Positions 2,057 to 58,226 of a stretch of DNA of 64,000 nt are shown one piece after another. Location: NCBI GenBank assembly GCA_032372955.1, contig GCA_032372955.1_4725.1; one strand, written 5' to 3'. The stretch's first letter is position 1, and each line of letters starts with the position of its first letter. The position numbers and the translations under genes are program-made. The notes under the pieces are model-generated. The model did not search any database and was not told where the DNA came from. It worked only from the letters and a program-made list of their open reading frames with translations. The stretch comes from Escherichia coli (GTDB lineage Bacteria; Pseudomonadota; Gammaproteobacteria; Enterobacterales; Enterobacteriaceae).

Positions 2057-2162
2057 TTTATGGCGTTGGTATCCGGTTATCTTTTGACTTCTGAATCAAC
2101 GGTTCAGAAGGTAAATGGCGGACATGATCACCCGCCAAGATTTTCCTACGTAGGAGTTCCAA

Positions 2163-4569: not shown

Positions 4570-7500
4570 ATGAAAAAATCGTTAGCTGATCTGATGCGTA
4601 AGTCGCATCTTAACCTGGAAAGCGGCGATACACCTATCGAAGTCAAAGCAACGCTTTCTACCGATAAAGAAGAGCAAGTGATCGCATTACCTACAGCGGC
4701 ACGGCCAGACAGCATCGAAGCGACGATCGAATCAGATACGCTCGAGGAAGGGGCTACCGTTGATGACGCCGTTCGTGTGATTCGTAGCACGGATGAGAAC
4801 GGTGAGGATGTCGTACGTGCTGTTATTGTGACCCGTCCTATTGATGGTAGTTTACGAATTCGTTTCACACCGAGCAGCGGTGGTGTGACCATGGAAGACG
4901 GTAACGATGTTCAACCGTTCGTTCTGATCGCGGTACCGACCGCACCTGGCGAAGAGCCGAAGAACCCATATCCGGCAAACGCGCCAACCGAAACACCGGC
5001 ACCGAAAGTGACCAATGATCCGACCGTTAACGCTGACCGTGACAACCTGAAGAACAAGATTCAGGATGCGGCTAACGCCATCGACCCGACCAACCCAGCA
5101 CAAATCGAACAGGCAGCACAACCTGCGGAAACCACCGAAGGTGTTAAAGGTAACGTCGTCGAACCGGAAAAAGCAGAACCTGTTGCTGAAACAGCGGCTG
5201 CGGCAGCCGAGGTGACGCCAGAAACCAAAACAACGGAAGAACCCATCAAAGTCACCGTGATTAAACGTGTCGTGGAGAAAGTAGAAAAGGTTGAAGATAA
5301 CGTCGCTGACGAACAACCTGTTGTCGACGCTAATGACGGTAATACCGGTGAGCAGAAAGCCGAAGCAGTTGCCCAGGAAACAGAACTGCAAGGCGATGTT
5401 GAGGTCGATAACGCTGACGAAACACCCACCGAGGACAGCACCACCGAACCTGCGTCCGAAGAACCTGCTAACACCGACGCTGACGCTGGTACCACCGACG
5501 ACACAACCACCAAGGGTGATGAAAACACCAAAGGTGACGATGATGAAGACGACGAAAACGAAGAAGATGAAGATCTGAAACAAGAGTCGTTCGAAATTCA
5601 TCAAGAGCTGGAAGCCCGTGGTGTATTAGATGTTCCTGTTGTTGAACAGCGCGCATCGGTTATTCTCGGTGAAGGTGAAACAGATGTAACCGTCATTGAA
5701 ACAGAACAACCGTACATTCCTGGCACCATGGTGGTACGTCGTCTTGATGGGGATAAGAGTGTTATTGTTCGCCGTACTCGTTACGCTGAACGCTTTAACG
5801 CTGATGGTCAGGGTGAAGCGATCGCCATTGTCGACCCTACTCTGCAAGGCGAACTGAAAATGGAATTCCGTCCGGCTGAAGGTCCGATGGAAAGCTTCGA
5901 GATTCGTCCTGAAATCAAAGACGAATACATCATGGAATCGTACAAACAGCTTGATATCGCACTGAATAGCGATCTCAATCTGGAAGACGGGGAAAAGCAA
6001 CCAGGTCGCTTTAAACAGATTCTGAAATCGGTTTACGAAGCGGTCGCGAAGTTCTTAAAAGCCCTCGTGGCACGTTTGAAAAATCTCTTTGGTGTTAATA
6101 AGAAAAAAATCGAAGGGAAGGCCAACAAGCTGACCAAAGAACAACGCACAGCACCGGTGATGAAACTGCTTCCTCCGCCGAGTAATACTTCGGATGAAAA
6201 GAAAGTCAACGTCGAATGGAACAAACTCGATACGCTGCTTGCGAACGACGCTAAATCCGTCGATAAAATCGTAAACGCGGTAAAAGACAGCAAACGTATC
6301 GCTGAAGCATCCCGTAAGTTCTTCGACCAGCTGAAGGATCTTAAAGAAGGCGAAAGTCCAAACGCTGATACGGACATGCTGACAGCAACAACAATGTCTG
6401 GCGTGGCCGCGTTCGGACATAGCGCCGACGCCGCTTTAGACGGTATTCGTAAGTTCCGTGACGAACTTAGCGCCATGAAACAGCAGGATGATGCTGTACC
6501 GTCTAACGTTAGCGTTGATATGCTGATCGATGCGTCAACGAAACTGTTTAACGAAGACCTTCTGAAAGCAGCTACACAACTTCAGGAGACAGCTGAACGG
6601 CTAATCCGTGACCTCGATAAGAGCGGTAGCGATTATGATGTTGGCTACATCGTTAAACGCACGCGCACACTGATGAACTTTGCGACAACAGCATGCACCG
6701 TCTACGGATTCGCTGCGAAAGAACTCGGCGATGTTACCGTTCGTATACTCACCGCTGTTGCAGCGGCTGATAACGGCGATCTCAAACAGGAAGAGTACCA
6801 GGATGTTGCTGGTGAAAACGATCCGGTTGTAACCGTCGAGACATTGGAAGGCGATGCTGGTACTCGTGTTGTTGCTGAGGCGGAAATCGTTGACGATCCT
6901 GCGGTGGTGGAATTCGTTGAGCGTGCTGAAGAAGCGCAGCGAAATCTGGCTATCGGTCGCCATGCGGTGAGCGCGGTGGAAGGTATTCTGGTAGCGGCAC
7001 GCGAGATCGGTCCTGATAACTTCCAGGGTAACGTCGAAGCTACCGAAATTGCGATGGAAGGATTCATGGATACCGTTAAGAGTGCGGTCAACCGTATCGG
7101 TAACTGGATTGAAACCAACCACCGTTACTATACCGCCGCTACGGCTCCATGGGATAAGCTGTTCGCCGAAACGCAGCAAGCGCTGGCCAAAGCGCGTCGC
7201 GGTAACCCAGCAGCGGAACGGATTATTCTGAAACGTTTCATCCGTCATCTTACCATCGGTGGTGAACCTGTTACCGATGTGAAGAAGCTCATCGCTGCGT
7301 TGGGTGAAATCAAAATGCTTGGTAACATGACGCGTGAATTAATCGTTGCTATCGATCGTGAACTCAGCGAAGTGCGGAAGAGCAACCAGTCCGAAACATC
7401 CGCTGGATCGGTTGTTGGTCTGAAGCGTATTCCTATTCAGAAATGGGATAAGCTTATGGTCGCTACCGTACAGCCGTGGAAAGACAGCGATCGTAAAGGC

Positions 7501-7956
7501 GTTGGGTCTAAAGCGTATCTTGGTGAAACGCACATCGTGAAGGTGAGCGCGACCTATGCGACAACGCGTAACAACCCGAACGAGGAAGCAGCGAAACTGA
7601 TGCAGTGGATCTACACCGGTATCAATCGCCAGTTTACGGTTTCTGACGACCTCACCAGTGAGGAATTACCGGTAGCCACTATCAGTGAACTGGAGGCAGT
7701 GCTGCGTGCGGCTCGTGAAGCGCATGAAGCTTGGCTTATTGCTGACAACGCCATGCAGACCCTGCGTTCAATCGATAAATTCCTGGATAGCGAACTCAAC
7801 GTTGAGAACGATGTTAATAATGTCGTTAACTACGGTATTGTTCTCGGCCTGGAAGATTGGTTGTTCCATCCGGCATTGACGTTATGGCAACAGTTCAATA
7901 AACCGATGCAAGCGGTGCTTTTCCTTATCAAAGCCCATTGCGGTGCCTACAAGTAA
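4570..7956 (+). CDS. large hypothetical protein with acidic Thr/Pro/Glu-rich low-complexity region (virion or internal head protein candidate)
   Basis: 1128-aa ORF, AAGAGGAA RBS; residues ~120-340 are strongly acidic low complexity (…GDDDEDDENEEDEDL…). Confidence 0.7.
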   Translation: MKKSLADLMRKSHLNLESGDTPIEVKATLSTDKEEQVIALPTAARPDSIEATIESDTLEEGATVDDAVRVIRSTDENGEDVVRAVIVTRPIDGSLRIRFTPSSGGVTMEDGNDVQPFVLIAVPTAPGEEPKNPYPANAPTETPAPKVTNDPTVNADRDNLKNKIQDAANAIDPTNPAQIEQAAQPAETTEGVKGNVVEPEKAEPVAETAAAAAEVTPETKTTEEPIKVTVIKRVVEKVEKVEDNVADEQPVVDANDGNTGEQKAEAVAQETELQGDVEVDNADETPTEDSTTEPASEEPANTDADAGTTDDTTTKGDENTKGDDDEDDENEEDEDLKQESFEIHQELEARGVLDVPVVEQRASVILGEGETDVTVIETEQPYIPGTMVVRRLDGDKSVIVRRTRYAERFNADGQGEAIAIVDPTLQGELKMEFRPAEGPMESFEIRPEIKDEYIMESYKQLDIALNSDLNLEDGEKQPGRFKQILKSVYEAVAKFLKALVARLKNLFGVNKKKIEGKANKLTKEQRTAPVMKLLPPPSNTSDEKKVNVEWNKLDTLLANDAKSVDKIVNAVKDSKRIAEASRKFFDQLKDLKEGESPNADTDMLTATTMSGVAAFGHSADAALDGIRKFRDELSAMKQQDDAVPSNVSVDMLIDASTKLFNEDLLKAATQLQETAERLIRDLDKSGSDYDVGYIVKRTRTLMNFATTACTVYGFAAKELGDVTVRILTAVAAADNGDLKQEEYQDVAGENDPVVTVETLEGDAGTRVVAEAEIVDDPAVVEFVERAEEAQRNLAIGRHAVSAVEGILVAAREIGPDNFQGNVEATEIAMEGFMDTVKSAVNRIGNWIETNHRYYTAATAPWDKLFAETQQALAKARRGNPAAERIILKRFIRHLTIGGEPVTDVKKLIAALGEIKMLGNMTRELIVAIDRELSEVRKSNQSETSAGSVVGLKRIPIQKWDKLMVATVQPWKDSDRKGVGSKAYLGETHIVKVSATYATTRNNPNEEAAKLMQWIYTGINRQFTVSDDLTSEELPVATISELEAVLRAAREAHEAWLIADNAMQTLRSIDKFLDSELNVENDVNNVVNYGIVLGLEDWLFHPALTLWQQFNKPMQAVLFLIKAHCGAYK

Positions 7957-7971
7957 TCCGTGCACATAAAC

Positions 7972-7993
7972 AGCCCGCCCTTCGGGGTGGGCT
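7972..7993 (+). terminator. hairpin with TTCG loop followed by TTTATGCTG
   Basis: AGCCCGCCC-TTCG-GGGGTGGGCT, 16 nt after the stop of the 1128-aa gene. Confidence 0.5.
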
Positions 7994-8044
7994 TTATGCT
8001 GTCGACCATCATGTGATATCTTATCTTTCAAACAGGAATCTGCG

Positions 8045-8428
8045 ATGACACGTGAAGCAAAATTTCTTTCACTCGCACTTAACGGTGCGCAGCAACAGAC
8101 ATGCTTGGTAGCGGCGTGCCCGCGACATTCAGTACCCGGTATGTATATTTGCCGTATTAACCCACATACCGCACACGAAACCGTCGTGCAGATTCCTGTT
8201 GCGGCACTACCGGAAGGTACCATCAAACCAATCATCCAAGGATTGCCGTTAGAAGCGCTATACGCTGTTTTAAACAACGAAATAGAAACATTAATGGAAA
8301 CGTCCAATGAAACAGATAAAACGCGTCTAGGGCTTGTTAGAGAGCTTCTACATAGCAGTCTGATTCATTATACCGGATATCGACAACAAGGAGGTGAGGA
8401 AATTAGCGAGGACGACACCGATGCCTAA
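8045..8428 (+). CDS. hypothetical protein
   Basis: 127-aa ORF; stop overlaps the next start (ATGCCTAA). Confidence 0.5.
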   Translation: MTREAKFLSLALNGAQQQTCLVAACPRHSVPGMYICRINPHTAHETVVQIPVAALPEGTIKPIIQGLPLEALYAVLNNEIETLMETSNETDKTRLGLVRELLHSSLIHYTGYRQQGGEEISEDDTDA

Positions 8429-9986
8429 ACTTGATCGAAAAATCAATGACGTATACGCGACGGTAACACGTCCGGTTGCAATCGCGGTGTTACGGCAGAT
8501 CAGCGAGCTTTGCGGATGGGATTATAATCGGGAGAACATTCTTTTTCGAGGGGAAGCGCTTCACGCTAAAATGAGCGCTGCGAACGAGCAACCGCCGCAA
8601 GTTGTTGATCAGGATGTAAAAGGGCCTGCTGACGGGTTTATCCAAATTGAGCTTAATATTGTCCCTGAAGAACAGGCGTCTATGTACGATACCGTTTACA
8701 AACGAAACAGTCTTCCCGTATTCGAAGACCGTAACCTTGGCGTATCGTTAGTACCTGTTTACAGTACAATGGTTGCGACCATGCAGATCACCAAACGGTT
8801 CGAGGATCAGGTCACCGCCGAACGTTGGTGGTACGACATGAAACGTTTGCTGACAAGCCAGCACGTCGCTGCCTTTCTTAGCGCTGAATACAGCTATGCG
8901 ATCCCAACACAGTTTCTCATGCTGTTAAAAGTTATCCACACACACCGAGAAGCAATAGCGGGTTACGGGGATAAGTTCAGCGAATACCTTAGAGACGGGT
9001 TCGACAACCGTGCAACCACCATGACGACAGTTGCCGGTGACGGTAAGAGCGTTAAATTGGTTATCAGGGAAATGCAAGAAGAGATCTCTGGCCAATTTGA
9101 TTTCACCGACGCACCAAAACCCGAGAAGAATGAGAACAGTTCTTCGTACAACGCAACCTTCTCTTACCGTTACACGTACGACACACCAACACACATCGTA
9201 GCACGGTATCCTGTTCAAGTACACCAACAGATACTCCCCGAAGAGTACCTTTACAAACCGAGCCTCTCGGTGCGTGATAAATCCCGTGCGCGTCGTGGTG
9301 GTATGGTGGTGCAGTATCAGGACATTCTTCGTGATTCGTTCTTGCCGGAGCAGGGTGCGTCGATTCAAGCGTATCGGTATCCTGATCTGGATGAATGGCT
9401 ACCGCCATCGAGCGTGGAAACCGAGCTTCCATCATGTACGCTTTTCACCGCACTGCTTGCTATCGATCCCGAACAACCTAACCTGTTGGTGACGTTGGAC
9501 TCGTTAGCCGAAGAAGGTGAATTCCATCCCGATCTTGTTCGGTGGTTCCGCGAGTACCCGGAATGGTCAAAATGCCATTACCAATCTCCTTTTTTCCTTG
9601 AGGTTTGGAAGGGTAAATACCGCTACGCAAGAGACGCGTGGACATTAACCGACGTTGGCGATCTTGAAGCGAAAGATCCGTTAGACTTACGGAGTGATTA
9701 CCACGTTCGTCTGGCGATACTGTTAGATTTAAGTCAGTTACAGGTTGAAACACTTGAAGCGTTGTGTTGTTATCCCAATCTGGTGGATGAACTGTTTGCG
9801 GTATTAGGTTTAGATAAAAAGTACTGGCCTAAGAAGAACAGTCGGGGATGCTATACGCTAATCGGGCTTATCGAAGCCATCAAACGTATCCCAACAACCG
9901 CTTCGTGGTTCAAACATCGTAGTTTATTCGTGCCGAGAATTCTTGTCGGTACCATCGTAGGAGTGAAACGCTATGGCGCTCGCTAA
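8421..9986 (+). CDS. hypothetical protein
   Basis: Start chosen at ATG 8421 (MPKLDRK) with GAGGA RBS; 521 aa; first of four translationally coupled ORFs. Confidence 0.6.
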   Translation: MPKLDRKINDVYATVTRPVAIAVLRQISELCGWDYNRENILFRGEALHAKMSAANEQPPQVVDQDVKGPADGFIQIELNIVPEEQASMYDTVYKRNSLPVFEDRNLGVSLVPVYSTMVATMQITKRFEDQVTAERWWYDMKRLLTSQHVAAFLSAEYSYAIPTQFLMLLKVIHTHREAIAGYGDKFSEYLRDGFDNRATTMTTVAGDGKSVKLVIREMQEEISGQFDFTDAPKPEKNENSSSYNATFSYRYTYDTPTHIVARYPVQVHQQILPEEYLYKPSLSVRDKSRARRGGMVVQYQDILRDSFLPEQGASIQAYRYPDLDEWLPPSSVETELPSCTLFTALLAIDPEQPNLLVTLDSLAEEGEFHPDLVRWFREYPEWSKCHYQSPFFLEVWKGKYRYARDAWTLTDVGDLEAKDPLDLRSDYHVRLAILLDLSQLQVETLEALCCYPNLVDELFAVLGLDKKYWPKKNSRGCYTLIGLIEAIKRIPTTASWFKHRSLFVPRILVGTIVGVKRYGAR

Positions 9987-17426: not shown

Positions 17427-19649
17427 ATGAATGATAAAACCCTTCTTAGCCAACAGGTCGCGGCCACTCGCCAGTTCCTGACCGCTAATGGTAGCAAACC
17501 AGCAGACAAAGGTCTGGAGAACACCTTCCTGTCTATGGAATCTGCTTCTAAGGTTGATTTCAAATCCATGGACAAACTGGTTAACGAAATGGATGTTAAG
17601 AGCTTCAGCAGCGACATCCGTAAAGCAGAAGAACCGGTTCTGTCCATGCTGGGCTTCGAAACCACCACTCCGGAAGAGAAGCAGCGTATTGAAGAACAGC
17701 TGTTCACCATGAACGCACAGCAGGCTCGTGCAGCAGCACTGATCATGCTGGCTCATGGCAACCCGGTGGAATATGCTAAACAAGCACGTTCCATGAACAT
17801 CAGCACCACTCCGTCTGGCCGTGAAGTTGACAGCTCTAACTTCGTCATGATGGCCGCCGATTCCTGCGGTTGCGAATCTGAAGAACTGGTTCAGCTGTCC
17901 TACGACCAGAAAGAACTGCGTGACATGATGCCGTACTCCGTTGTGTTCAACGTGAAGGCTTCTCGTCTGAGCCGCATGGGTAACGAACTGTACAACACCA
18001 TCGTTCTGGCTCCGAACCAGATCGGTTACGACGTATCTTTCCGTCGTCCGCTGGTGTTCAACCACCTGCGTCGTAACGCTGACGGTACTCCGGCTGATTG
18101 GGTACGTCGTCCGCTGCTGGATGCGTTCATGTACAACGACGTTCTGTCCAACGACGTGACCGATCTGCATCCGATCTATCGTGCTGACGATGCTAACGCG
18201 CAGTACTTCGTTGACAAAACTATCGTTGCTCCGCGTGACATCGAAATTAAAGGCGTAACTTACAAAACGTCTTACCTGGCCGTTGATAAACTGATCGACA
18301 TGATCGGTATTGCTGAAGACGATAGCATCCTGGCTAACGGTTACAGCGACAACACCGACGCGCTGGACGCTCAGATCACGCTGACCAAAATCCTGGTGGA
18401 AATCAAATCCACCAAACACAGCAAAACCTCTTACGTACCGTTCGACGTATCTGGTCTGATCACCAACGGTTTCCAGAAATCCCTGGAAGGCGACTTCCGC
18501 AAAATGACCCTGGCGTTCGACACCCACTCCATCTTCGTTGATGAGAACACCGTTGACGTTAAAGGTGCACGAGCTGAAGCGCTGCAGGACATCATCGATT
18601 CGAAATCCGCTGCTCAGCTGGCAATCGAAGTTTACGGTTCTTCCAACGTAGAGAAAGCCGGTCTGCGTGTTAACGGCGCTAACGCTGAACTGTATCGTCT
18701 GGTCGATCGTGACAACATCGAACAACCGCGTAAGGGCGAAGAGTTCAAACAGCTGGCTGAAGACCTGAGCTTCAAACTGGTTGGTTACGAACTGCGTATC
18801 CGCCGTAACAACAGCAACCGTCGTGAGCGTGGTAAGCACCTTGACTTCAACATGAAGCAAGAACGTTACGCAATCGGCCTGCTGGCTCCGTTCTCCATTC
18901 CTCGTCCGCTGGATTGGGAAGAAAACGCTGCTGACCTGGACGTTCTGATCCAAGCTGCTAACGCACGTTTCGACAACCTGATGGTTGAGAAACTGTTCAG
19001 CTACAAAGACGCACTGAAAGCGGTTGCGACCTCTCGCTTCCGTCAGTTCGGCGACATCCAGATCGAAGGTTTCGGTCGTTACCTGATCCGTCCGTGGTTC
19101 GAAGAAATCAATCTGGACCTGGAGAAATCTGTTCAGGGTACCACCACTGCAGAACGTCGTGCTGAAGTGTCCGCTGCGATCATGAACGTGATTCGTGAGA
19201 TGGCATACCGCATGTACTCCGAGTCTGGTTATCAGCCAGCTCTGCAGCTGCTGTCTTCCAACGCTGATGAGAAACCGCGTTGCGTAGTAGCAACTGACAA
19301 CTACATCCCGCAGTTCCTGCAGACCGATGGCGATTTCCGTACCGTTGGTGTGAGCTTCAACTTCGTGGTTGTAGATAACCCGAACGTCATGCTGCGCGAT
19401 AAGATCTTCGTGACCCTGTCTCGTGGTATCCAGGGTTCTCCGGATCCGCTGACCTTCGGTATGTTCCTGTATGTACCGGAACTGGTATCTGTTGCTCAGG
19501 TTACCCGTAACGGTCAGGTTTCTAAAGAAACCATGGTTCAGCCGCGCTGCCGCTTCGTTAACAACTGCCCGCTGCTGGGTCTGATTAACGTTGTGAACCT
19601 GCGTAAGGTCTACACTGAAAACATCAAGCTGCCTGTTCAGACTAACTGA
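17427..19649 (+). CDS. abundant virion structural protein, probable major capsid protein
   Basis: 740-aa ORF, AAAGGA RBS. Extreme bias to high-expression codons (ctg, cgt, ggt, aac, ttc), unlike neighbours; size fits jumbo-phage capsid proteins. Identity not verified. Confidence 0.55.
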   Translation: MNDKTLLSQQVAATRQFLTANGSKPADKGLENTFLSMESASKVDFKSMDKLVNEMDVKSFSSDIRKAEEPVLSMLGFETTTPEEKQRIEEQLFTMNAQQARAAALIMLAHGNPVEYAKQARSMNISTTPSGREVDSSNFVMMAADSCGCESEELVQLSYDQKELRDMMPYSVVFNVKASRLSRMGNELYNTIVLAPNQIGYDVSFRRPLVFNHLRRNADGTPADWVRRPLLDAFMYNDVLSNDVTDLHPIYRADDANAQYFVDKTIVAPRDIEIKGVTYKTSYLAVDKLIDMIGIAEDDSILANGYSDNTDALDAQITLTKILVEIKSTKHSKTSYVPFDVSGLITNGFQKSLEGDFRKMTLAFDTHSIFVDENTVDVKGARAEALQDIIDSKSAAQLAIEVYGSSNVEKAGLRVNGANAELYRLVDRDNIEQPRKGEEFKQLAEDLSFKLVGYELRIRRNNSNRRERGKHLDFNMKQERYAIGLLAPFSIPRPLDWEENAADLDVLIQAANARFDNLMVEKLFSYKDALKAVATSRFRQFGDIQIEGFGRYLIRPWFEEINLDLEKSVQGTTTAERRAEVSAAIMNVIREMAYRMYSESGYQPALQLLSSNADEKPRCVVATDNYIPQFLQTDGDFRTVGVSFNFVVVDNPNVMLRDKIFVTLSRGIQGSPDPLTFGMFLYVPELVSVAQVTRNGQVSKETMVQPRCRFVNNCPLLGLINVVNLRKVYTENIKLPVQTN

Positions 19650-47308: not shown

Positions 47309-48097
47309 TTTATGTTTGTGATTATTCTTCTCTTTTATAATTTCTAATGATAAGATTAAGTACCTGGAGTAAAAGTTTACAGATGTTGTAAATGTATTTG
47401 GAAAGTAAAATTTCCACGACCTCGGCCCCTTCGGGGGACGGGGGAGGAGCGAAGTCCTTTAGAGACGAGCAACAGGATAACTCTAAGAAAAAGAAAAACT
47501 AAACGAGCGAAGCGAGTTTATGTTTTTATCCTTAGAGTTATCAAGCTATAAGCGTAGCGTTAGCGTATAACGGTTATGTCGTATACGAATGCAATGAGTA
47601 TAGACGAGATACTCTGATGAACAACGTGAAGAAGAGTATCACAAATGTTTTTTGAGTTATCCGGATTTAACTAGCATGTAACGAAGTGTAATGCACAGAT
47701 GACATGTGTTACCGTTAAGGTAGTAAACACATGTTATCCATTGTTTTGAAGATAAGCTTATTAACTTACTTTTAAATCAATTTAAATATACAAACAACTT
47801 AAACATACCAAGATAAAACAATTGAACCTAAGATAAACAAGATAACTTAGACAATACACTTTTAACGAATACAGATAACATCTTACTTAAATCAAAATAC
47901 CTATCCTCGTTTACCTTCCTTGCTTGCAACACCTCTTCTAAATCCATCCCTTCTTAAGAAACAACAAAACCCTTACTGTAACACAAATCCTTTCACGACT
48001 ATATTACCTAAGTGATGCGTACGTACGATGTTCGTATTGCGTCAAATAGAACTCAATACGTTGTTTAATTAACGTGAAAAACAGAGGAACTTTTTAA
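47309..48097. other. 789-bp AT-rich non-coding region with inverted and direct repeats
   Basis: No ORF of 60 aa or more; 12-bp inverted repeat 47476-47487 / 47531-47542; five AGATAA copies 47750-47880; direct repeat CTTACTT(TT)AAATCAA at 47765 and 47882. Confidence 0.6.
48000..48015 (+). promoter_or_regulatory. conserved promoter-like motif TATATTACCTAAGTGA (copy C)
   Basis: Preceded by TTTCACGAC as in copy D; ~80 nt upstream of the 48098 gene cluster. Confidence 0.45.
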
Positions 48098-51852: not shown

Positions 51853-51909
51853 CCTTCCTTCCCCGGCCTTTACGGCTAGGGAAGGAGGTTGTATAGCATT
51901 TCTTTTTTT
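51853..51909. terminator. imperfect member of hairpin family plus T-run between convergent genes
   Basis: CCTTCCTTCCCCGGCC-TTTAC-GGCTAGGGAAGGAGG then TCTTTTTTTATT. Confidence 0.45.
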
Positions 51910-52996
51910 ATTGGAACGGGTCTGTACGACCGCTGCCACGATCTACACCACCGTGATCGTGGGTGTATACGTTTGTTCCGGTTGGTGAACGCCAAGAGCC
52001 TGCGATGTGTATGAAGTTCCCATTCAACGTCATCGTGTTCCCGTCTTCACCTGTGAAGCTTACAGCTCCAGTGAATACCGTATTAGGACATTTGAACGTG
52101 GTCTGTCCTGATACTTGCGCGGTGTAGCGATCACACTTCAAAGAAACATTCTGGCTCGTAACGCTTTCTGTTTTACTGGTACGCTCGAAGTTCTCACATT
52201 CGGTATAAATGTTTTTTGCTTTCATTCGGATATCGTTCTTAGCAATTGCTTTGAGCGTATCCTCGCATTGGAATGTGATGTTCTTTTTTGTCACGTCGAT
52301 GATGCTGTCGTCCTGGTTTTGATAACGCAGCATATGCTCGACAAAATGGAGTAACAGCAGATTTTGATGGACGCTGTCCGCAACCTGTAGGTAACCCTCG
52401 TCCAGATTAAGTTCCATGTAGACTTGGGTAACTTCACCAAGCTGTGCGCTGGTGCCGATAACCGCTTTCTTGAGGAAAGTATCAACCATTAGGTAATAGC
52501 AGTCTTCCGTTGAAATCGATTTACGGTCCTTCTTGGCGCTAGGACGTGCGCTGATGGTGAGGATAACCGATTCCATGGTCATCAGCTCGCTATCCCCTCC
52601 TTTGGGCTGCCAGTATAGCTGTTCTTCATCGGCGGTACGCCAGACCACCACACGCTGACCTTTCCTCAAGTTAGGTGCTGTCATCCGGTTACTGCCGAAG
52701 GGTAACCAGTAACACTGTACGCTGGTTGTTGTTGCCGCTTTCGCCGTATAACTGTTCCCTTGAGCGTCTGTTGCACTGACTTCTTTCACGCTTCCCGCCG
52801 CTTCAACTTTCCCGTCAGCACCTGACATCATCTCATCAAGAAAGACCTCCAGCGCCTGGTTAGGATCTTCTTCCAGACTTTTATTGGAAAAGTCGGCAGC
52901 AACAGTACCCAAGGCAAAGATACGGAAAACGCTTACGTTGTTGTCTGGAGCTAGCTGACTCCCTTTTGTGCGATTGTCTGTTGCCAGATCGCTCAT
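51908..52996 (-). CDS. hypothetical protein with His/Gly-rich C-terminus (possible baseplate spike-like; unverified)
   Basis: 362-aa ORF, AGGAG RBS; C-terminal VYTHDHGGVDRGSGRTDP. Confidence 0.55.
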   Translation of the reverse strand: MSDLATDNRTKGSQLAPDNNVSVFRIFALGTVAADFSNKSLEEDPNQALEVFLDEMMSGADGKVEAAGSVKEVSATDAQGNSYTAKAATTTSVQCYWLPFGSNRMTAPNLRKGQRVVVWRTADEEQLYWQPKGGDSELMTMESVILTISARPSAKKDRKSISTEDCYYLMVDTFLKKAVIGTSAQLGEVTQVYMELNLDEGYLQVADSVHQNLLLLHFVEHMLRYQNQDDSIIDVTKKNITFQCEDTLKAIAKNDIRMKAKNIYTECENFERTSKTESVTSQNVSLKCDRYTAQVSGQTTFKCPNTVFTGAVSFTGEDGNTMTLNGNFIHIAGSWRSPTGTNVYTHDHGGVDRGSGRTDPFQ

Positions 52997-53039
52997 GCTG
53001 TAATCTCCTACTGATTTAAATAACGATATAGAAAATAAC

Positions 53040-53083
53040 GCTGAAGTATGGCTTCAGCTTCGCATTCTGAACCCGTGGTTCAG
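53040..53083. promoter_or_regulatory. two adjacent inverted repeats upstream of the Rad50-like gene
   Basis: GCTGAAG-TATGG-CTTCAGC (53040-53058) and CTGAACC-CGT-GGTTCAG (53067-53083). Confidence 0.35.
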
Positions 53084-53110
53084 AAGGTATCGAAGAAGGA
53101 TTATCATAGC

Positions 53111-55567
53111 ATGCGATGCACCTATCTCCACTTACGTGGATTCAATCGTTTTGATACCGGGATGATTCGGGAGCTGGTCATCCGGCCAGATAATCCCGTA
53201 CAACTCATTTTAGGCAGTAATGGTTCCGGTAAGAGTAGTCTACTGCCTTTGCTGTATCCAACCGTTCCTGAGCGTGCCGATTTTGATAAAGATGGGTATT
53301 ACGAGTACCGCTGCGAACACCGTAATAAGCAATACCGTCTTATCAGTCGTTTAGAAAAAGGGTTTAAGCACGAGTTCTACGTTAACGATAGCGAGAACCT
53401 GAATGGTGGTGGTACACAACCAGCCCAGTGGAAACTAATCGAGGAACATTTTGAACTTAATGACGACACCATTCGTTTGTTGTTAGGTTACGAAACGGCT
53501 TACCAGTTCACCGAAATGGGGCCGATGAAACGTCGCGAACGATTAACGCAGATATGTCCGGTTAACGTCGATTATGCGCTTGAGTTGTTTCAGGTGGTTA
53601 AGCAACAAGTACGTTCACTGAAAGCGGTGAATGAACATACACTGAATAAGTTGGTTGAAACATCACAGCGCATTGAAGCGAAATACACCGGCACCGACCA
53701 CCAGGGATTGGAAGCAGAGTTAAAGCAGCAACGCTCAGCGCTCGAAGCGATGATGGGGTTGCCGTTATTCGATAGTGATGTCGATCAACGACAGCTTCTG
53801 GAATCCGCACAACGTGCCCATCATTTTAATCGCGAGCTTCTTCGTGCGGTTGTTCGTTACCAAGGAGGAACATCGCAACAAGAACAGCAGAATCTGGCTG
53901 GACTAAGAGAACAACTCGCGAATGCGAATGCAAAACTCGAAAGTCAGGTTGACGAGCTGTTGGGTATCGATAACATTCTTGACCAGTTGAAACAGTCTGG
54001 AGAAGGTGATATCGATCAAATTAAAGCCCGCATTGCACGTTTGGACGAACAACTTCAGCAAGATCATCCAGGTGAGCTTTTAACAATGAATCTGGACGCT
54101 GCGGTTTGTTTACAACAGCTCATGCAAGTTCAGGCTCCGTTAACGGAATTGCTGCAAGAATGGATTGATACCGACAACACCTATCACGTCTACGATGCTG
54201 AAGCTTACATCAAGGAGGAAGAGGCGGCAAGAATGCGTTTGCGTAACGCGAAACATGCGTTAGCCGATTTGGAAGCGCATCTCGACCATCTTAACCATCA
54301 ACCCCAGACCAGCTGTCCAAAATGCAATTATCGCTTTCACGTTGGTGAAACGGAAAAGACCAGCAAAGCGAGTATTGAACAGCGTATTCAGAAAGGCCGT
54401 GCTTGGGTTGAAGAACAAGAGAAATCGTTAGCTGAGCTTAGCGAGAAGGTTCAGCGCTATACGCTCTGGATGGAACAGCATCGTCAGTTAACACGTTGGA
54501 CGAAGGATTATTACGCCATTAAACCCATGTGGGACAATCTGCTGGAAGAAGGACGTAAAAACGGTTTAGGATTCCGCAGCATTGGAATCATTAACGACTG
54601 GTTGCTTGCGTTTGAGAAACTTGCGCGTTACACACAAGCCGAGCAAGAACGGAAGCATCTTCAAGGCATGCTCGAACGTGTACAAGCGGTTGATGTTGAA
54701 CCGTTACAGCAACGTCGAGAATTGCTTTATAAGAACAGGACAGAGTTGTTAACAACCGTTGAGCGGTTAACACAAGCCATCACAGCTACGGAAGGCAGAT
54801 TGGAAACCATTACGACGATTATGGAAGATCAGGTGCGTTCTGATAACAGCGATAAAGCGTTAACGCAACTGTGGTTAGAGTATCTGCAACACCTCTACAC
54901 GAAATCGTTACGTGCTGCGATGTCTGATACGGTTCGCCGAATAAGTCATGTCGAACAGCAACTACAGGAAGCTAAAACCGACCAGCAGCTTCTGGCTCAG
55001 TTGGAAACGACACAAAAAGAGGTGGAAGAACAGCTCAGTTACGCACAACTTGTTTTGGATGAGTTGAGTCCATCCAACGGATTGATTGCCGAAACAATTG
55101 CTGGCCCAATCAACGCATTCGTTGAATACATGAACGGTATCATTTCGAGTATTTGGGAATACCAACTTCAGATACTCCCGTGTGCTATCGACGCGCAAGG
55201 ATTGAACTATCGTTTTCCGCTTTTAACTGAGAAGTATCCGACACCGCGAAAAGATATTGTTTATGGGAGTAAGGGACAAAAGGAAATTATCAACATCGCG
55301 TTCATCATCGCGATGATGCATTACAAAGGGTTTACGGATTATCCGTTGATGTTAGATGAATTCGCATCAACATTCGATCCGCAGCACCAATCTAATGCCA
55401 TGGATTTTGTTCGTCGTCTGGTTGATGGTCACCGCGTAAGCCAGGTGTGGTTTATCAGTCACTATGTAATCAACCATGCATCATTCCGTAAAGCCGAGTG
55501 TATGGTTCTTGATAAAACGAACATCATTCTCCCTGAAACATATAACGAACACGTCACGATTATTTAA
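53111..55567 (+). CDS. SMC/Rad50/SbcC-family ATPase
   Basis: Start chosen at MRCTYLHLRGFNRF (typical family N-terminus). Walker A LILGSNGSGKSSLL, long Q/E/L-rich coiled coil, signature-like GSKGQKE, Walker B PLMLDEF, H-loop WFISHY. Confidence 0.7.
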   Translation: MRCTYLHLRGFNRFDTGMIRELVIRPDNPVQLILGSNGSGKSSLLPLLYPTVPERADFDKDGYYEYRCEHRNKQYRLISRLEKGFKHEFYVNDSENLNGGGTQPAQWKLIEEHFELNDDTIRLLLGYETAYQFTEMGPMKRRERLTQICPVNVDYALELFQVVKQQVRSLKAVNEHTLNKLVETSQRIEAKYTGTDHQGLEAELKQQRSALEAMMGLPLFDSDVDQRQLLESAQRAHHFNRELLRAVVRYQGGTSQQEQQNLAGLREQLANANAKLESQVDELLGIDNILDQLKQSGEGDIDQIKARIARLDEQLQQDHPGELLTMNLDAAVCLQQLMQVQAPLTELLQEWIDTDNTYHVYDAEAYIKEEEAARMRLRNAKHALADLEAHLDHLNHQPQTSCPKCNYRFHVGETEKTSKASIEQRIQKGRAWVEEQEKSLAELSEKVQRYTLWMEQHRQLTRWTKDYYAIKPMWDNLLEEGRKNGLGFRSIGIINDWLLAFEKLARYTQAEQERKHLQGMLERVQAVDVEPLQQRRELLYKNRTELLTTVERLTQAITATEGRLETITTIMEDQVRSDNSDKALTQLWLEYLQHLYTKSLRAAMSDTVRRISHVEQQLQEAKTDQQLLAQLETTQKEVEEQLSYAQLVLDELSPSNGLIAETIAGPINAFVEYMNGIISSIWEYQLQILPCAIDAQGLNYRFPLLTEKYPTPRKDIVYGSKGQKEIINIAFIIAMMHYKGFTDYPLMLDEFASTFDPQHQSNAMDFVRRLVDGHRVSQVWFISHYVINHASFRKAECMVLDKTNIILPETYNEHVTII

Positions 55568-55588
55568 GACAAATAAGGATTTCTGTTG

Positions 55589-56401
55589 ATGAAAAAGCCC
55601 ATGAAGAAGCTAGGCCATGCACGCAAGCATCGCTATTCCGATCTGGAGAAAATGTTTTTAACGCAGCAGCCGTTTCTCCAGACTTATTTTAACGGGATGG
55701 CGAAGAAGTTAGCCGATGAGTACCAGGAGCGTGGTACGCCAGCACGAATTACAATCACCGTAATTCCAACGTTCGCTGAAAAGATCTATAACGTCATGAC
55801 GGAGATTATTCCCGAAGACGCAAAATCCCAGGATGAAGTTCTGCGATTAACACGCTACATCCGTTTTAAAGAACATCTGGACGCACAAGCCACCATCATT
55901 CTGGAAAACGAAAAACCTGAACCCGACGTTGAGCTTATTGCTTCTCTCCTCCCTGACCGTTTATTACACGATTTTGTTACCGTGAAACGTATCGACGAAC
56001 AAGGAAAAGAGGTTGAGGTTCAGCTACGCCAAGAAACCGTGGTTGCGTTGGATTGGATTGAAGACCGTTGTAAAGCGCTGAGCAAGCTTCTGGATGATGA
56101 AGGGACGAATGCTCGTGTCGCTATCGATTTCGGTTATGAACCGGATGATGCAGTAACCATGATGCGCGTGCTGTACGATCCTAAGGTTAATGACCACGCG
56201 ATCATCGTTAAACGCGAAGGCGTTAAAGGCGAAGTTAGCCTGGTTAAAGACCTGGGTCCTATTCACACGGTAGGTTTAACCGAAGACCAAACGCCGTTCG
56301 AAAAGCTTTCGGTGTATGAGCAATCGGAAGTTGAACGCTTCCTGGAAGGTGTTGTTGCGAAAACCTTCCCATGGTCAGTAGAGGCTGTTGTAACATCATG
56401 A
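55589..56401 (+). CDS. hypothetical protein
   Basis: 270-aa ORF, AAGGA RBS; no phosphoesterase (Mre11/SbcD) motifs seen. Confidence 0.55.
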   Translation: MKKPMKKLGHARKHRYSDLEKMFLTQQPFLQTYFNGMAKKLADEYQERGTPARITITVIPTFAEKIYNVMTEIIPEDAKSQDEVLRLTRYIRFKEHLDAQATIILENEKPEPDVELIASLLPDRLLHDFVTVKRIDEQGKEVEVQLRQETVVALDWIEDRCKALSKLLDDEGTNARVAIDFGYEPDDAVTMMRVLYDPKVNDHAIIVKREGVKGEVSLVKDLGPIHTVGLTEDQTPFEKLSVYEQSEVERFLEGVVAKTFPWSVEAVVTS

Positions 56402-57012
56402 TCCCACCAGAATACGCTTACGATATTCTGGCAATCGACCCTGGCACCGATACACTCGGTGCGTCGTTACTACGTTTGGACGTGCGTGTCGAAGATATTG
56501 AACTGCTGTATGCGGGGACATGGCACGCCTCACGTCGATACGATCCCGATGGCGATATTGCGCTTGGATACGGTAATCGTGCCGCGCGTATCCAAGAACA
56601 CCGTCGTTCGCTGACAACGTTATTGCAAGAGTACCAGCCGCAAGCGGTTGCTTGTGAGACACCGTTCATCGGTCGTTTCAAGCAAAGCGGTATGGCGCTC
56701 AGCGAGCTGTTTTCAGCGATTCAGACAACGGTTATCGACTTTGATCCTACGGTATCTTTCTTAGGGGTTGATAACCGAAGCGCAAAACGCGCTGTTGGGA
56801 TTATGACGTCCCGTGTTGGTAAGGACGATGTTCGCCAGAAAGTGCTGAACCTCATGAACATCACACCCAGAAACGGTGTCGTGTTAGCGAATCTTGATGA
56901 GCATGCGATAGACAGCATCGCCGTGGGTTATTTCGCAGCTGAACTCCTGTTCGAAGAATGGCGTATTCTTGATGACCATCGAAACGGGAAGGTCGGTACA
57001 AAACGCCGTTAG
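56398..57012 (+). CDS. RuvC-like Holliday junction resolvase
   Basis: Start at MIPPEY (ATGA overlap). ILAIDPGTDTLG N-terminal Asp motif, VACETPF Glu, NLDEHAIDSIAVGYF (DxxD/A pattern of RuvC). Confidence 0.7.
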   Translation: MIPPEYAYDILAIDPGTDTLGASLLRLDVRVEDIELLYAGTWHASRRYDPDGDIALGYGNRAARIQEHRRSLTTLLQEYQPQAVACETPFIGRFKQSGMALSELFSAIQTTVIDFDPTVSFLGVDNRSAKRAVGIMTSRVGKDDVRQKVLNLMNITPRNGVVLANLDEHAIDSIAVGYFAAELLFEEWRILDDHRNGKVGTKRR

Positions 57013-57044
57013 CAACTCGTACAAAACCCAAGAAGGAAAACGTT

Positions 57045-58226
57045 ATGAATACGGTTGAATGGGGCCTAGTTGATTATTGTCCTCAAGTCCCGGTTATCTG
57101 TGGTGCAGAGAAATACAGCGAAGATCGTTTTATCGTACCGTTGGTCAGTACGACGACAAAACGTCCGGTTAGTGAAGGTGCAATAACCGGTCTGTTGGCG
57201 CATCTTAACGACGGTAAGGTGCCCGTCATTAGCAGTAAAATCGAAGCGGTGCTTGATGGCGCTGAAGTGCTCTTCCCGATTCGTGACGTGAACGATATCG
57301 TCGGTCGCGTTTTAACAGGATGGTTGGAAGACGACGGTGTGGTAAAAGCCTTGATTCATATTGACCGCGATACTCCTAATGCGGAACGTGTGAAACAGGC
57401 ATTGAATTCGGATGCTACGCGTTTGCAGATCACCGTCATGGACGTTGGTGCTGAAAACAAGTATTTAGTTGAATACTTCGTTCCCATGGTGTCCATCGAA
57501 CCTTTTGACCGCATTGTTGAGCAACCTGAACCTACCGCAGATAAAATAGTGACGCCAGCGGTAATGCGAAGTATCACTGCAGACAACTCGGTATTGAACA
57601 ATGAATCTATCATCCTACGTGGTATTGTTCCTACCGGATACAACGGTGAAGCATTATTAGTCAGAATTCCGGAACTTAATAACCGTCGTGTGTTTATCGG
57701 ATGTGTTGGGTATGAAGTTCTGTACTTCGACGCCGAAGGTCGTGCTGTGATTGCGACAAAATCAAAGTTATTTAACCAGCATAAAGCGCAAGCGTCCGCA
57801 ACCCAACCGTACCGGCTGGTGTATTCCGAAGATAAAGTAACGATCTGGTTCGTGAATGGAAACGATACCCTTAATAGTGCTTTTCCAGAGAAAACATTCA
57901 AACCAGTGACATTAATAGAAATGTTCGGTGGTGAGGCATACGTAGCTAATTGTGTTAATGGTCAGTTCCGTCTACCCTCCTGTTGTGAATTCAAGACGGA
58001 TGACACCATTACCGTAAACAATGTGCGTGTAAGTCTAATAAGAATCGACGCTAGTTCCGGTTTTGCGGTGTTTGAACCCCACGGCATGATTCTCGAAAAT
58101 CTTAAAGAGGCTTGTAAGGTCTCAGAACCATTCGGTGATGAACGCAGCCTTATCATCGTTAAACGTACCGATGTTGATCGGGTGGAGATTACAGTATCGC
58201 AGCCGATGTCGGCGAAAACGAAGTAG
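57045..58226 (+). CDS. hypothetical protein
   Basis: 393-aa ORF, AAGGAAAA RBS. Confidence 0.6.
   Translation: MNTVEWGLVDYCPQVPVICGAEKYSEDRFIVPLVSTTTKRPVSEGAITGLLAHLNDGKVPVISSKIEAVLDGAEVLFPIRDVNDIVGRVLTGWLEDDGVVKALIHIDRDTPNAERVKQALNSDATRLQITVMDVGAENKYLVEYFVPMVSIEPFDRIVEQPEPTADKIVTPAVMRSITADNSVLNNESIILRGIVPTGYNGEALLVRIPELNNRRVFIGCVGYEVLYFDAEGRAVIATKSKLFNQHKAQASATQPYRLVYSEDKVTIWFVNGNDTLNSAFPEKTFKPVTLIEMFGGEAYVANCVNGQFRLPSCCEFKTDDTITVNNVRVSLIRIDASSGFAVFEPHGMILENLKEACKVSEPFGDERSLIIVKRTDVDRVEITVSQPMSAKTK

What the first reader, a model, noticed from the sequence alone, without database searches (positions are those of the whole stretch)
53040..55567. Rad50/SbcC-like ATPase without an adjacent Mre11/SbcD nuclease, preceded by two small inverted repeats
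The 818-aa ATPase has Walker A, coiled coil, signature-like motif, Walker B and H-loop in the canonical order, but neither flanking gene shows phosphoesterase motifs (DxH, GNHD/E), unlike the usual paired arrangement in T4 and bacteria. Just upstream, GCTGAAG-TATGG-CTTCAGC (53040-53058) and CTGAACC-CGT-GGTTCAG (53067-53083) may be regulatory. The protein could act with a distant nuclease or serve an SMC-like role.
Basis: partly seen in the sequence, partly recalled or inferred. Interest (0 to 1): 0.5.

Follow-up and report, generated by a model that had tools for sequence, protein, structure and literature searches.

The report
Jumbo-phage Rad50/SbcC ATPase, nuclease partner unlinked
This is the already annotated Rad50/SbcC-type DNA-repair ATPase of a Goslar-like nucleus-forming jumbo phage; its Mre11/SbcD nuclease partner exists but is encoded 80-150 kb away, as in this whole phage family, so the "orphan" arrangement is ordinary.

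Summary
The window is 96% identical to E. coli jumbo phage Goslar (Chimalliviridae). The ORF 53111-55567 (818 aa) is Goslar gp12, "putative SbcC-like protein", the orthologue of phiKZ gp165. It is a genuine Rad50/SbcC ATPase. It has a Walker A motif, a long coiled coil with a central CPKC zinc hook, a divergent signature motif, and Walker B, D-loop and H-loop motifs. Solved Rad50 structures are the best sequence and fold matches.

However, Goslar encodes exactly one SbcD-like metallophosphoesterase, gp178, labelled "hypothetical" in the record. It lies about 153 kb away (81 kb the other way round). In the 20 phiKZ-like genomes for which both positions were listed, the two genes were at least 80 kb apart. 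In phiKZ, antisense knock-down of either gene impairs the phage. The "distant nuclease" reading is therefore right and already known. The SMC-like reading is not supported.

Both inverted repeats exist. Hairpin 1 is unremarkable. Hairpin 2 is really a 9-bp stem. It belongs to a small element, TTCTGAR-N7-TTCAGAAGGTA, with three copies per Goslar-type genome. This is a minor new lead of unknown function.

The parts
53111..55567 (+). Rad50/SbcC-like ABC ATPase gene (818 aa plus stop). Orthologue of Goslar gp12 and phiKZ gp165.
   Evidence: phrog_77 'SbcC-like', 3e-74. 99.1% aa identity to Goslar 'putative SbcC-like protein'. 25% identity, E 1e-75, full length, to PHIKZ165. Profile against the PDB: P. 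furiosus Rad50, 5e-14. Foldseek top hit: C. thermophilum Rad50, 2.7e-15.
53213..53236 (+). Walker A / P-loop, GSNGSGKS (aa 35-42).
   Evidence: Invariant G35 N37 G38 G40 K41 S42 S43 in 45 homologues.
54314..54325 (+). CPKC zinc-hook motif (aa 402-405) at the apex of the coiled coil.
   Evidence: C402 in 44/45 and C405 in 45/45 homologues. The profile matches the Rad50 hook structure 1l8d at E 5e-4. The AF2 model has a short non-helical turn at 396-418 between the two long helical arms.
55268..55279 (+). Divergent signature motif, S720-K-G-Q.
   Evidence: S720 is invariant. The family pattern is S-x-(G/S)-(M/Q)-K-E, against canonical LSGG(Q/E).
55346..55378 (+). Walker B (LMLDE, aa 746-750) and D-loop (D756).
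   Evidence: D749, E750, D756 and H759 are invariant. This stretch aligns to the Rad50 C-lobe.
55457..55462 (+). H-loop, S783-H784.
   Evidence: H784 is present in 44/45 homologues.
53040..53058 (.). Hairpin 1, GCTGAAG-TATGG-CTTCAGC (7 bp).
   Evidence: On the minus strand it scores as terminator-like (tail GTTATTTTCT). Goslar annotates it that way. It is absent from the two relatives at 50% identity. Taken alone it is not rarer than chance.
53065..53089 (+). Hairpin 2 element, copy 1: TTCTGAACC-CGT-GGTTCAGAA followed by GGTA. It ends 21 nt before the start codon (53089 to 53111).
   Evidence: The RNA fold of 53036-53120 keeps both hairpins (z = -3.7). Goslar has the loop reverse-complemented.
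2089..2113 (+). Hairpin 2 element, copy 2: TTCTGAATC-AAC-GGTTCAGAA followed by GGTA. It ends 49 nt before ATG 2163 (2113 to 2163).
53096..53100 (+). Shine-Dalgarno-like AAGGA, 10 nt before ATG 53111.
   Evidence: Read directly from the sequence. The block AAGGAT..TCATAGCATG is conserved in L011.
51908..52996 (-). Divergently transcribed baseplate assembly protein gene.
   Evidence: phrog_3216, 5.8e-61. The same divergent pairing (PHIKZ164/PHIKZ165) exists in phiKZ.
55589..56401 (+). 270-aa protein of unknown function. It sits directly downstream of the ATPase gene only in Goslar-like phages.
56398..57012 (+). RuvC-like Holliday junction resolvase gene, in the same gene string.
   Evidence: Pfam RuvC 9.3e-6 and phrog_159 1.6e-21. 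Goslar annotation.

Best explanation
The gene encodes the Rad50/SbcC subunit of the phage's own Mre11-Rad50-type DNA-end-processing machine.

Shown here:
- The ATPase has intact nucleotide-binding motifs.
- It has a roughly 230-residue antiparallel coiled coil on each side of a CxxC zinc hook.
- A catalytically intact Mre11/SbcD-type phosphoesterase (Goslar gp178, phiKZ gp65) is encoded in the same genomes at an unlinked, syntenic locus.

Inferred by analogy with E. coli SbcCD, archaeal and eukaryotic Mre11-Rad50, and T4 gp46/gp47:
- Two ATPase heads engage on ATP. Each coiled-coil base binds one nuclease subunit, giving an M2R2 complex. The hooks join or close the arms.
- ATP hydrolysis drives exonucleolytic and endonucleolytic cutting of DNA ends and hairpins.
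- The resected ends feed recombination-dependent replication and break repair of the 237-kb genome inside the phage nucleus.
- The RuvC-like resolvase encoded two genes downstream resolves the resulting junctions.

The two small inverted repeats lie in a 114-nt divergent intergenic region. Hairpin 2 most likely forms in the 5' leader RNA of the ATPase message. It is one of three copies of a lineage-specific element. What it controls is unknown.
For: Identity:
- Megablast gives 96.2% identity to Goslar, where the match is annotated 'putative SbcC-like protein'.
- phrog_77, 3e-74.
- 45-member family with invariant Walker A, CxxC, S720, DE, D756 and H759.
- The profile hits Rad50 N-lobe, C-lobe and hook structures.
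- AF2 model pLDDT 85.8. Foldseek top hit is Rad50.

Partner:
- Goslar gp178 matches phrog_100 'SbcD-like' at 1.8e-40.
- It is 32% identical (E 2e-59) to RP12 'nuclease SbcCD D subunit'.
- The phosphoesterase residues D20 H22 / G56 D57 / H100 D101 / H172 / G209 H210 H212 are invariant.
- Fifteen of the sixteen PDB profile hits with E below 0.01 are Mre11 or SbcD, led by T. maritima at 2.2e-9. The sixteenth, 1s8e_A, is labelled only 'exonuclease putative'.
- It is the only such ORF in Goslar (E 1.7e-134, next best 0.23).

Co-occurrence:
- The ATPase is found in 285 phage records and the nuclease in 302. Counts per host genus nearly match: identical for Pseudomonas 81, Serratia 21, Aeromonas 19, Klebsiella 16, Ralstonia 13 and Escherichia 4; off by one or two for Erwinia 61/62, Salmonella 24/23 and Vibrio 21/23.
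- The two genes are at least 80 kb apart in each of the 20 records where both positions were listed.
- phiKZ has gp65 at 55066-56229 and gp165 at 169093-171585.

Literature:
- In RP12, SbcC is ORF69 and SbcD is ORF282 (PMC5468394).
- SbcC and SbcD are practically universal in jumbo phages (PMC7824862).
- phiKZ orf165 took no transposon insertions (PMC12676376).
- Antisense knock-down of phiKZ 065 ('nuclease') and 165 both reduce phage yield (PMC12571901).

Hairpins.
Against: - No experiment or complex prediction here shows that the two proteins bind each other.
- The window's own genome beyond 64 kb was not available. The exact ATPase protein was found only on contigs of about 7 kb. The partner is therefore inferred from a relative at 96% identity.
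- The canonical Q-loop glutamine is not conserved at the expected position (K/R/T at position 132).
- The signature motif is divergent.
- For the hairpins, covariation rests on only four sequences and is statistically indistinguishable from shuffles (249/500).
- No transcription start site is known for this region.
Confidence: 0.82

Rival explanations
1. The ATPase works without a nuclease, as an SMC-like DNA organiser or tether inside the phage nucleus.
For: SMC5/6, condensin and MukB are the next-best fold matches. Pfam only gives SMC_N, below threshold. No nuclease is adjacent.
Against: The apex is a CxxC hook of about 20 residues, not a hinge domain. Rad50 is the top hit by both sequence and fold. 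An Mre11-type gene co-occurs in the same genomes. Both genes matter for phiKZ growth (PMC12571901).
Confidence: 0.06
2. The ATPase has swapped partners and works with a neighbouring gene product, either the 270-aa orphan protein or the RuvC-like resolvase, instead of Mre11/SbcD.
For: The order ATPase, 270-aa protein, RuvC, thymidylate kinase is conserved in relatives at 50% identity.
Against: The 270-aa protein is confined to Goslar-like phages. The 275-aa ORF in the same position in another chimallivirus is unrelated. In phiKZ and L008 the downstream genes differ, whereas the ATPase itself is family-wide. No nuclease fold was found in the 270-aa protein.
Confidence: 0.06
3. The inverted repeats act at the DNA level. 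They could be operator sites (CTGAA-N7-TTCAG, two in tandem with centres 26 bp apart) for a dimeric regulator. Alternatively, hairpin 1 could be a minus-strand terminator that shields the baseplate gene from antisense read-through.
For: Both repeats share the CTGAA-N7-TTCAG form with identical spacing. It occurs 4 times in the window against 0.03 expected. Hairpin 1 has a terminator-like T-rich tail on the minus strand, and Goslar annotates it as a terminator.
Against: In copies 2 and 3 the stem keeps full pairing only through G-U wobbles on the gene-sense strand, which favours RNA. No minus-strand gene ends upstream of hairpin 1. Other spacings of the same half-sites also occur about once each, so the background is higher than the Markov estimate.
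Confidence: 0.25
4. The inverted repeats have no function. They would be a neutral remnant of a small repeated insertion.
For: They are absent from the relatives at 50% identity, whose intergenic regions are 67 and 58 nt against 114 nt here. Hairpins with 7-bp stems are common.
Against: Three copies are all intergenic, all oriented with the downstream gene, and have maintained pairing.
Confidence: 0.25

Closest known systems
phiKZ gp165 (PHIKZ165) and Goslar gp12, the chimallivirus SbcC-like core protein
   Same: Full-length orthologue: 99% identical to Goslar gp12, and 25% identical (E 1e-75) to phiKZ gp165. Same length, same motifs, and the same divergent pairing with a baseplate gene.
   Different: Nothing of substance. 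About 1% amino-acid difference from Goslar.
T4 gp46/gp47 and E. coli SbcC/SbcD
   Same: ABC ATPase heads, coiled coil and CxxC hook. A five-motif Mre11-type phosphoesterase partner exists in the genome.
   Different: The genes are not adjacent or co-transcribed here; they lie 81-153 kb apart in Goslar. The signature motif is divergent and the Q-loop glutamine was not recognisable. In the partner, motif III reads GT..HD rather than GNHD/E.
Archaeal and eukaryotic Rad50 (P. furiosus; C. thermophilum MRN)
   Same: These are the best solved-structure matches by sequence profile, including the hook structure 1l8d, and by fold.
   Different: Identity is only about 12-14% over the fold alignment. No Nbs1-like third subunit is known.
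SMC proteins (condensin, Smc5/6, MukB, JetC)
   Same: Same head fold and a long coiled coil. They are the next-best fold hits.
   Different: The phage protein has a zinc hook in place of a hinge domain. No kleisin-type partner was identified.

Membership tests
Rad50/SbcC ABC ATPase | N-terminal Walker A P-loop | tested here: met
   GSNGSGKS at aa 35-42, invariant across 45 homologues.
Rad50/SbcC ABC ATPase | C-terminal lobe with Walker B (hhhhDE), D-loop and H-loop | tested here: met
   LMLDE at 746-750, D756 and H784. This stretch aligns to the P. furiosus Rad50 C-lobe.
Rad50/SbcC ABC ATPase | Signature motif (LSGG-type) | tested here: inconclusive
   An invariant serine (S720) sits in S-K-G-Q. 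The family pattern S-x-(G/S)-(M/Q) departs from the canonical motif.
Rad50/SbcC ABC ATPase | Q-loop glutamine | tested here: inconclusive
   Q132 in this protein is K/R/T in most homologues. The conserved block is F-T-x-M-S...R141. No structure-based alignment was made.
Rad50/SbcC ABC ATPase | Long antiparallel coiled coil with a central CxxC zinc hook | tested here: met
   CPKC at 402-405 is conserved in 44-45 of 45 homologues. Helical arms run 154-395 and 419-652 in the AF2 model. The profile hits the hook structure 1l8d.
Rad50/SbcC ABC ATPase | Similarity to solved Rad50 or SbcC exceeds that to other SMC-type ATPases | tested here: met
   The top five sequence-profile hits and the top two Foldseek hits are Rad50.
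Rad50/SbcC ABC ATPase | Mre11/SbcD partner encoded in the same genome | tested here: inconclusive
   Absent from the 64-kb window. Present once in Goslar, which is 96% identical at the nucleotide level, and in 302 related phage records. The rest of this phage's own genome was not available.
Rad50/SbcC ABC ATPase | Forms an M2R2 complex with ATP-dependent nuclease activity | not testable with these tools
   Needs biochemistry or a multimer prediction.
Mre11/SbcD nuclease (for Goslar gp178, the proposed partner) | Five calcineurin-like phosphoesterase motifs with metal-binding Asp and His residues | tested here: met
   D20-x-H22, G56-D57, G96-T-x-x-H100-D101, H172 and G209-H210-x-H212 are invariant in 38 sequences. 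The PDB profile hits with E below 0.01 are Mre11/SbcD, apart from one chain labelled only 'exonuclease putative'. phrog_100, 1.8e-40. Pfam Metallophos scores only 0.04, below its cut-off.
SMC proper (condensin-like) | Globular hinge dimerisation domain at the coiled-coil apex | tested here: not met
   Only about 20 residues, carrying the CxxC, separate the two arms.
Intrinsic terminator (hairpin 1) | GC-rich stem followed by a T-run, placed at the 3' end of a transcription unit | tested here: inconclusive
   The pattern is met on the minus strand. However, no minus-strand gene ends upstream of it; the nearest is more than 5.8 kb away.
Rfam RNA families (hairpin region) | Match to a curated covariance model | tested here: not met
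   No match with E of 1 or below in 52800-53300.

The most novel reading that the evidence does not exclude
The 9-bp hairpin upstream of the ATPase gene would be one of three copies of a Goslar-lineage cis-regulatory leader element, UUCUGAR-N7-UUCAGAAGGUA. The element would co-regulate the Rad50-like ATPase gene, the gene for the phiKZ gp68-like subunit of the non-virion RNA polymerase (Goslar gp175), and gp55. It could act through RNA stability, RNA processing or a phage RNA-binding protein. The flipped loop in Goslar would show that the palindrome actually extrudes or recombines in vivo.
Probability: 0.25. Interest if true: 0.35.

Novelty: already known. Interest (0 to 1): 0.15.

Why it matters
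The result removes an apparent anomaly. The phage does not have an orphan Rad50. It has a split-locus Mre11-Rad50 system that is a conserved and functionally important core module of nucleus-forming jumbo phages.

Two practical gains follow. First, Goslar gp178 and its counterpart in this phage should be annotated as the SbcD/Mre11-like subunit rather than "hypothetical protein". Second, a small three-copy hairpin element has been identified that could be tested as a regulatory signal in a phage group whose middle and late transcription signals are poorly defined.

Tried and rejected
- The 839-aa reading from ATG 53048 was rejected. It has no ribosome-binding site, homologues start at the 53111 equivalent, and the extension is not conserved in L011 or L012.
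- The 275-aa ORF downstream of the ATPase in a distant chimallivirus is not homologous to it.
- Goslar gp157, a 185-aa metallophosphoesterase, matches Metallophos_2 and phrog_547, a generic phosphoesterase. It is not SbcD.
- I tried to tie the window to a full genome through the exact ATPase protein. Only contigs of about 7 kb carry it.
- The first IMG/VR pattern scan used a wrong degenerate base and found nothing. The corrected pattern found only Goslar-type genomes and one unrelated coding hit.
- Rfam found nothing.
- The phiKZ-type early promoter motif is absent upstream of the ATPase gene. The late-type TATG in the loop of hairpin 1 is too short to evaluate.
- PHROG searches of the genes downstream of element copies 2 and 3 gave no function.
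Full report
**What the window is.** Megablast of 52000-57100 against the phage collection finds only Escherichia phage vB_EcoM_Goslar. The match has 96.2% identity over 100% of the query. Goslar is a 237-kb nucleus-forming jumbo phage. In its record the ORF under study is Goslar_00012, "putative SbcC-like protein". To one side lies a minus-strand structural (baseplate) gene. To the other lie a hypothetical protein, a RuvC-like resolvase, another hypothetical protein and thymidylate kinase. Family scans of the window's own ORFs agree:
- phrog_77, "SbcC-like", 3e-74.
- phrog_3216, baseplate, 5.8e-61.
- RuvC, by Pfam (9.3e-6) and phrog_159 (1.6e-21).
- Thymidylate kinase.

**Checking the observation: the ORF.** The mechanical ORF begins at ATG 53048 (839 aa). 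The real start is ATG 53111 (818 aa), for four reasons:
- AAGGA lies 10 nt upstream.
- Goslar annotates this start.
- All 44 homologues recovered from 5.8 billion proteins are about 800-860 aa and share the N-terminus.
- The two relatives at 50% identity start at the same M-(R/K)-C-T-Y, with unrelated sequence upstream.

**Checking the observation: the motifs.**
- Walker A, aa 35-42.
- CPKC, aa 402-405.
- S720-K-G-Q, signature-like.
- Walker B, aa 746-750.
- D756, D-loop.
- H784, H-loop.

A profile of the family hits P. furiosus Rad50 best (5e-14). It matches both lobes and, separately, the Rad50 zinc-hook structure 1l8d (5e-4). The AlphaFold2 model is confident (pLDDT 85.8). It shows two long helical arms joined by a short turn that carries the CxxC. 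Low-confidence breaks at 294-299 and 526-531 sit roughly opposite each other on the two arms. Foldseek ranks C. thermophilum Rad50 first (2.7e-15), ahead of Smc5/6, condensin, MukB and JetC.

Two features are atypical. The signature motif is divergent. The canonical Q-loop glutamine is not conserved at the expected place.

**Is a nuclease partner missing?** It is missing locally.
- The upstream neighbour is a baseplate protein.
- The downstream 270-aa protein has no credible family match (only a sub-threshold Pfam hit).
- That protein is confined to four protein clusters of Goslar-like phages.
- An HMM built from the phage SbcD family finds nothing in the six-frame translation of the window (best E 0.15).

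**The partner in the genome.** It is not missing at the genome level. A paper on Ralstonia phage RP12 lists SbcC as ORF69 and SbcD as ORF282 (PMC5468394). I fetched ORF282. Its syntenic Goslar counterpart is gp178, annotated "hypothetical protein". The evidence that gp178 is the SbcD/Mre11 subunit is as follows:
- gp178 is 32% identical to ORF282 (E 2e-59).
- It matches phrog_100, "SbcD-like subunit", at 1.8e-40. Pfam Metallophos reaches only 0.04, which explains the missing annotation.
- Thirty-eight family members keep all the phosphoesterase residues invariant: D-x-H, G-D, G-T-x-x-H-D, H and G-H-x-H.
- The family profile hits T. maritima Mre11/SbcD (2.2e-9), P. furiosus Mre11 and E. coli SbcD. 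Fifteen of the sixteen hits with E below 0.01 are Mre11 or SbcD; the other is labelled only "exonuclease putative".
- It is the only such ORF in Goslar (1.7e-134, next best 0.23).

gp178 lies at 162609-163751. The ATPase gene lies at 7499-9955. The separation is therefore about 153 kb, or about 81 kb the other way round. By alignment to Goslar, this is about 73 kb beyond one end of the window and about 100 kb beyond the other.

**The split arrangement is the family norm.** tblastn finds the ATPase in 285 phage records and the nuclease in 302. The per-genus counts nearly match: identical for Pseudomonas 81, Serratia 21, Aeromonas 19, Klebsiella 16, Ralstonia 13 and Escherichia 4, and off by one or two for Erwinia (61/62), Salmonella (24/23) and Vibrio (21/23). 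In each of the 20 records where both positions were listed, the genes are at least 80 kb apart.

In phiKZ the nuclease is gp65 (55066-56229). RefSeq already names it "SbcD-like subunit of palindrome specific endonuclease". The ATPase is gp165 (169093-171585), again divergent from a baseplate gene. The window protein aligns with gp165 over its full length (E 1e-75).

The literature agrees on four points:
- SbcC and SbcD are "practically universally conserved" in jumbo phages (PMC7824862).
- phiKZ orf165 tolerated no transposon insertions (PMC12676376).
- Antisense knock-down of phiKZ 065 and of 165 each reduced phage yield (PMC12571901).
- Both genes are listed in the core genome (PMC12571901).

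**Mechanism.**

Shown here:
- An intact Rad50-type ATPase with a hook.
- An intact Mre11-type nuclease in the same genomes.
- Strict co-occurrence of the two genes.

Inferred from E. coli SbcCD, Mre11-Rad50 and T4 gp46/47:
- The two proteins form an M2R2 complex.
- ATP binding and hydrolysis gate nucleolytic processing of ends and hairpins.
- The resected ends supply recombination-dependent replication and repair.
- Junctions are resolved by the RuvC-like enzyme encoded two genes downstream.

I give this about 0.8 confidence. A nuclease-free SMC-like role is unlikely. A partner swap to a neighbouring gene product is also unlikely.

**The inverted repeats: what is there.** Both exist. Perfect hairpins with stems of 7 bp or more are frequent. 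There are 36 maximal ones in the window, and a count that includes nested versions gives 45 against 25 +/- 5 in shuffles. Hairpin 1 is therefore not significant alone. On the minus strand it looks terminator-like, and Goslar annotates it so. However, no minus-strand gene ends near it.

Hairpin 2 is really a 9-bp stem with a 3-nt loop (53065-53085), followed by GGTA. The same unit recurs at two other places:
- Window 2089-2113, ending 49 nt before ATG 2163.
- The Goslar gp176/gp175 spacer.

Goslar gp175 is the orthologue of phiKZ gp68 (E 2e-37), which PMC12571901 lists as "sigma factor". By my recollection, not checked here, gp68 is a subunit of the non-virion RNA polymerase.

Copies 1 and 3 also share upstream sequence, GCTT(C/T)AGC(T/A)TCGCA.

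**The inverted repeats: RNA or DNA, and origin.** All nine pairs hold in all four distinct sequences. There is one compensatory change (C-G to U-A) and two G-U wobbles, which pair only on the gene-sense strand. This hints at an RNA hairpin. With four sequences it is not statistically distinguishable from shuffles.

The RNA fold of 53036-53120 keeps both hairpins (z = -3.7). It also pairs UCGCAU (53060-53065) with the start-codon region AUGCGA.

A scan of IMG/VR finds the element only in Goslar-type genomes, with up to three copies each (three in Goslar itself), plus one unrelated coding match. The relatives at 50% identity lack both hairpins. Their intergenic regions are shorter (67 and 58 nt against 114 nt). 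They share a TAAC-N-(A)TATAGA block with the window. The hairpin pair is therefore a lineage-specific insertion of about 50 nt.

Across 221 aligned nucleotides, the only difference between the window and Goslar is the hairpin 2 loop. It reads CGT here and ACG in Goslar, which is its reverse complement. This is the signature of an inversion across the palindrome. Rfam has no match. The function is unknown. I favour a leader-RNA role but hold that loosely.

**Verdict.** The main feature is already known and annotated. The useful by-products are a corrected annotation for the SbcD-like gene and a small repeated hairpin element worth a transcript-mapping experiment.

Noticed in passing
window 53065-53089 and 2089-2113; Goslar L004 minus strand 37913-37889: A three-copy intergenic element, TTCTGAR-N7-TTCAGAAGGTA, with a 9-bp stem and 3-nt loop. 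Each copy is oriented with the downstream gene: the SbcC-like gene, Goslar gp55, and the phiKZ gp68-like gene gp175. In IMG/VR it occurs only in Goslar-type genomes, apart from one unrelated coding match.
   Followed up: partly
window 53074-53076 vs Goslar L001 13075-13077: The loop of hairpin 2 is CGT here (and in L013, L015, L017) but ACG in Goslar, which is its reverse complement. It is the only difference in 221 aligned nt. This suggests an inversion across the palindrome.
   Followed up: partly
window 47991-48015 and 60494-60518: Two near-identical 25-mers, TTTCACG(A/G)CTATATTAC(C/T)TAAGTGA. Both are intergenic and lie ahead of plus-strand genes. They match the published phiKZ-group promoter consensus (phiKZ TATATTAC; 201phi2-1 TTTRARR.BTATATTAC...GTG; PMC7058600 Table 2), so they are likely virion-RNA-polymerase early promoters. 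The motif is absent upstream of the SbcC-like gene.
   Followed up: partly
Goslar NC_048170 162609-163751 (L004:39610-40752, minus strand): gp178 is annotated 'hypothetical protein' in both GenBank and RefSeq, but it is the SbcD/Mre11-like nuclease (phrog_100 1.8e-40; invariant phosphoesterase motifs; PDB profile hits to Mre11/SbcD).
   Followed up: yes
window 53060-53065 with 53111-53116: The minimum-energy RNA fold pairs UCGCAU, just 5' of hairpin 2, with AUGCGA at the start codon. That pairing would enclose the ribosome-binding site and start codon. An alternative lower stem, CUUCG 53058-53062 with CGAAG 53091-53095, is also possible.
   Followed up: no
Goslar L004 minus strand, about 37885-37830 (gp176/gp175 spacer); also L014 8866-8925: Downstream of element copy 3 there is a further strong stem, TGCAAGG...CTCGC-TTCG-GCGGG...CCTTGCA, with a UUCG-type loop, inside a 204-nt spacer. 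It could be a structured RNA or a terminator.
   Followed up: no
window 53024-53039; L011 9957-9972; L012 4243-4262: A conserved TAAC-N-(A)TATAGA(-N)-TAAC block in the baseplate/SbcC divergent intergenic region, shared by relatives at 50% identity. It is a candidate promoter of a non-early class.
   Followed up: no
window 17878-17894: A fourth CTGAA-N7-TTCAG palindrome lies inside the major capsid protein gene. It is probably coincidental.
   Followed up: no
window 55589-56401: A 270-aa protein with a basic N-terminus. It is conserved directly downstream of the SbcC-like gene only in Goslar-like phages (four clusters). Residues 15-160 are modelled confidently. No solved-structure fold match was found.
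   Followed up: partly
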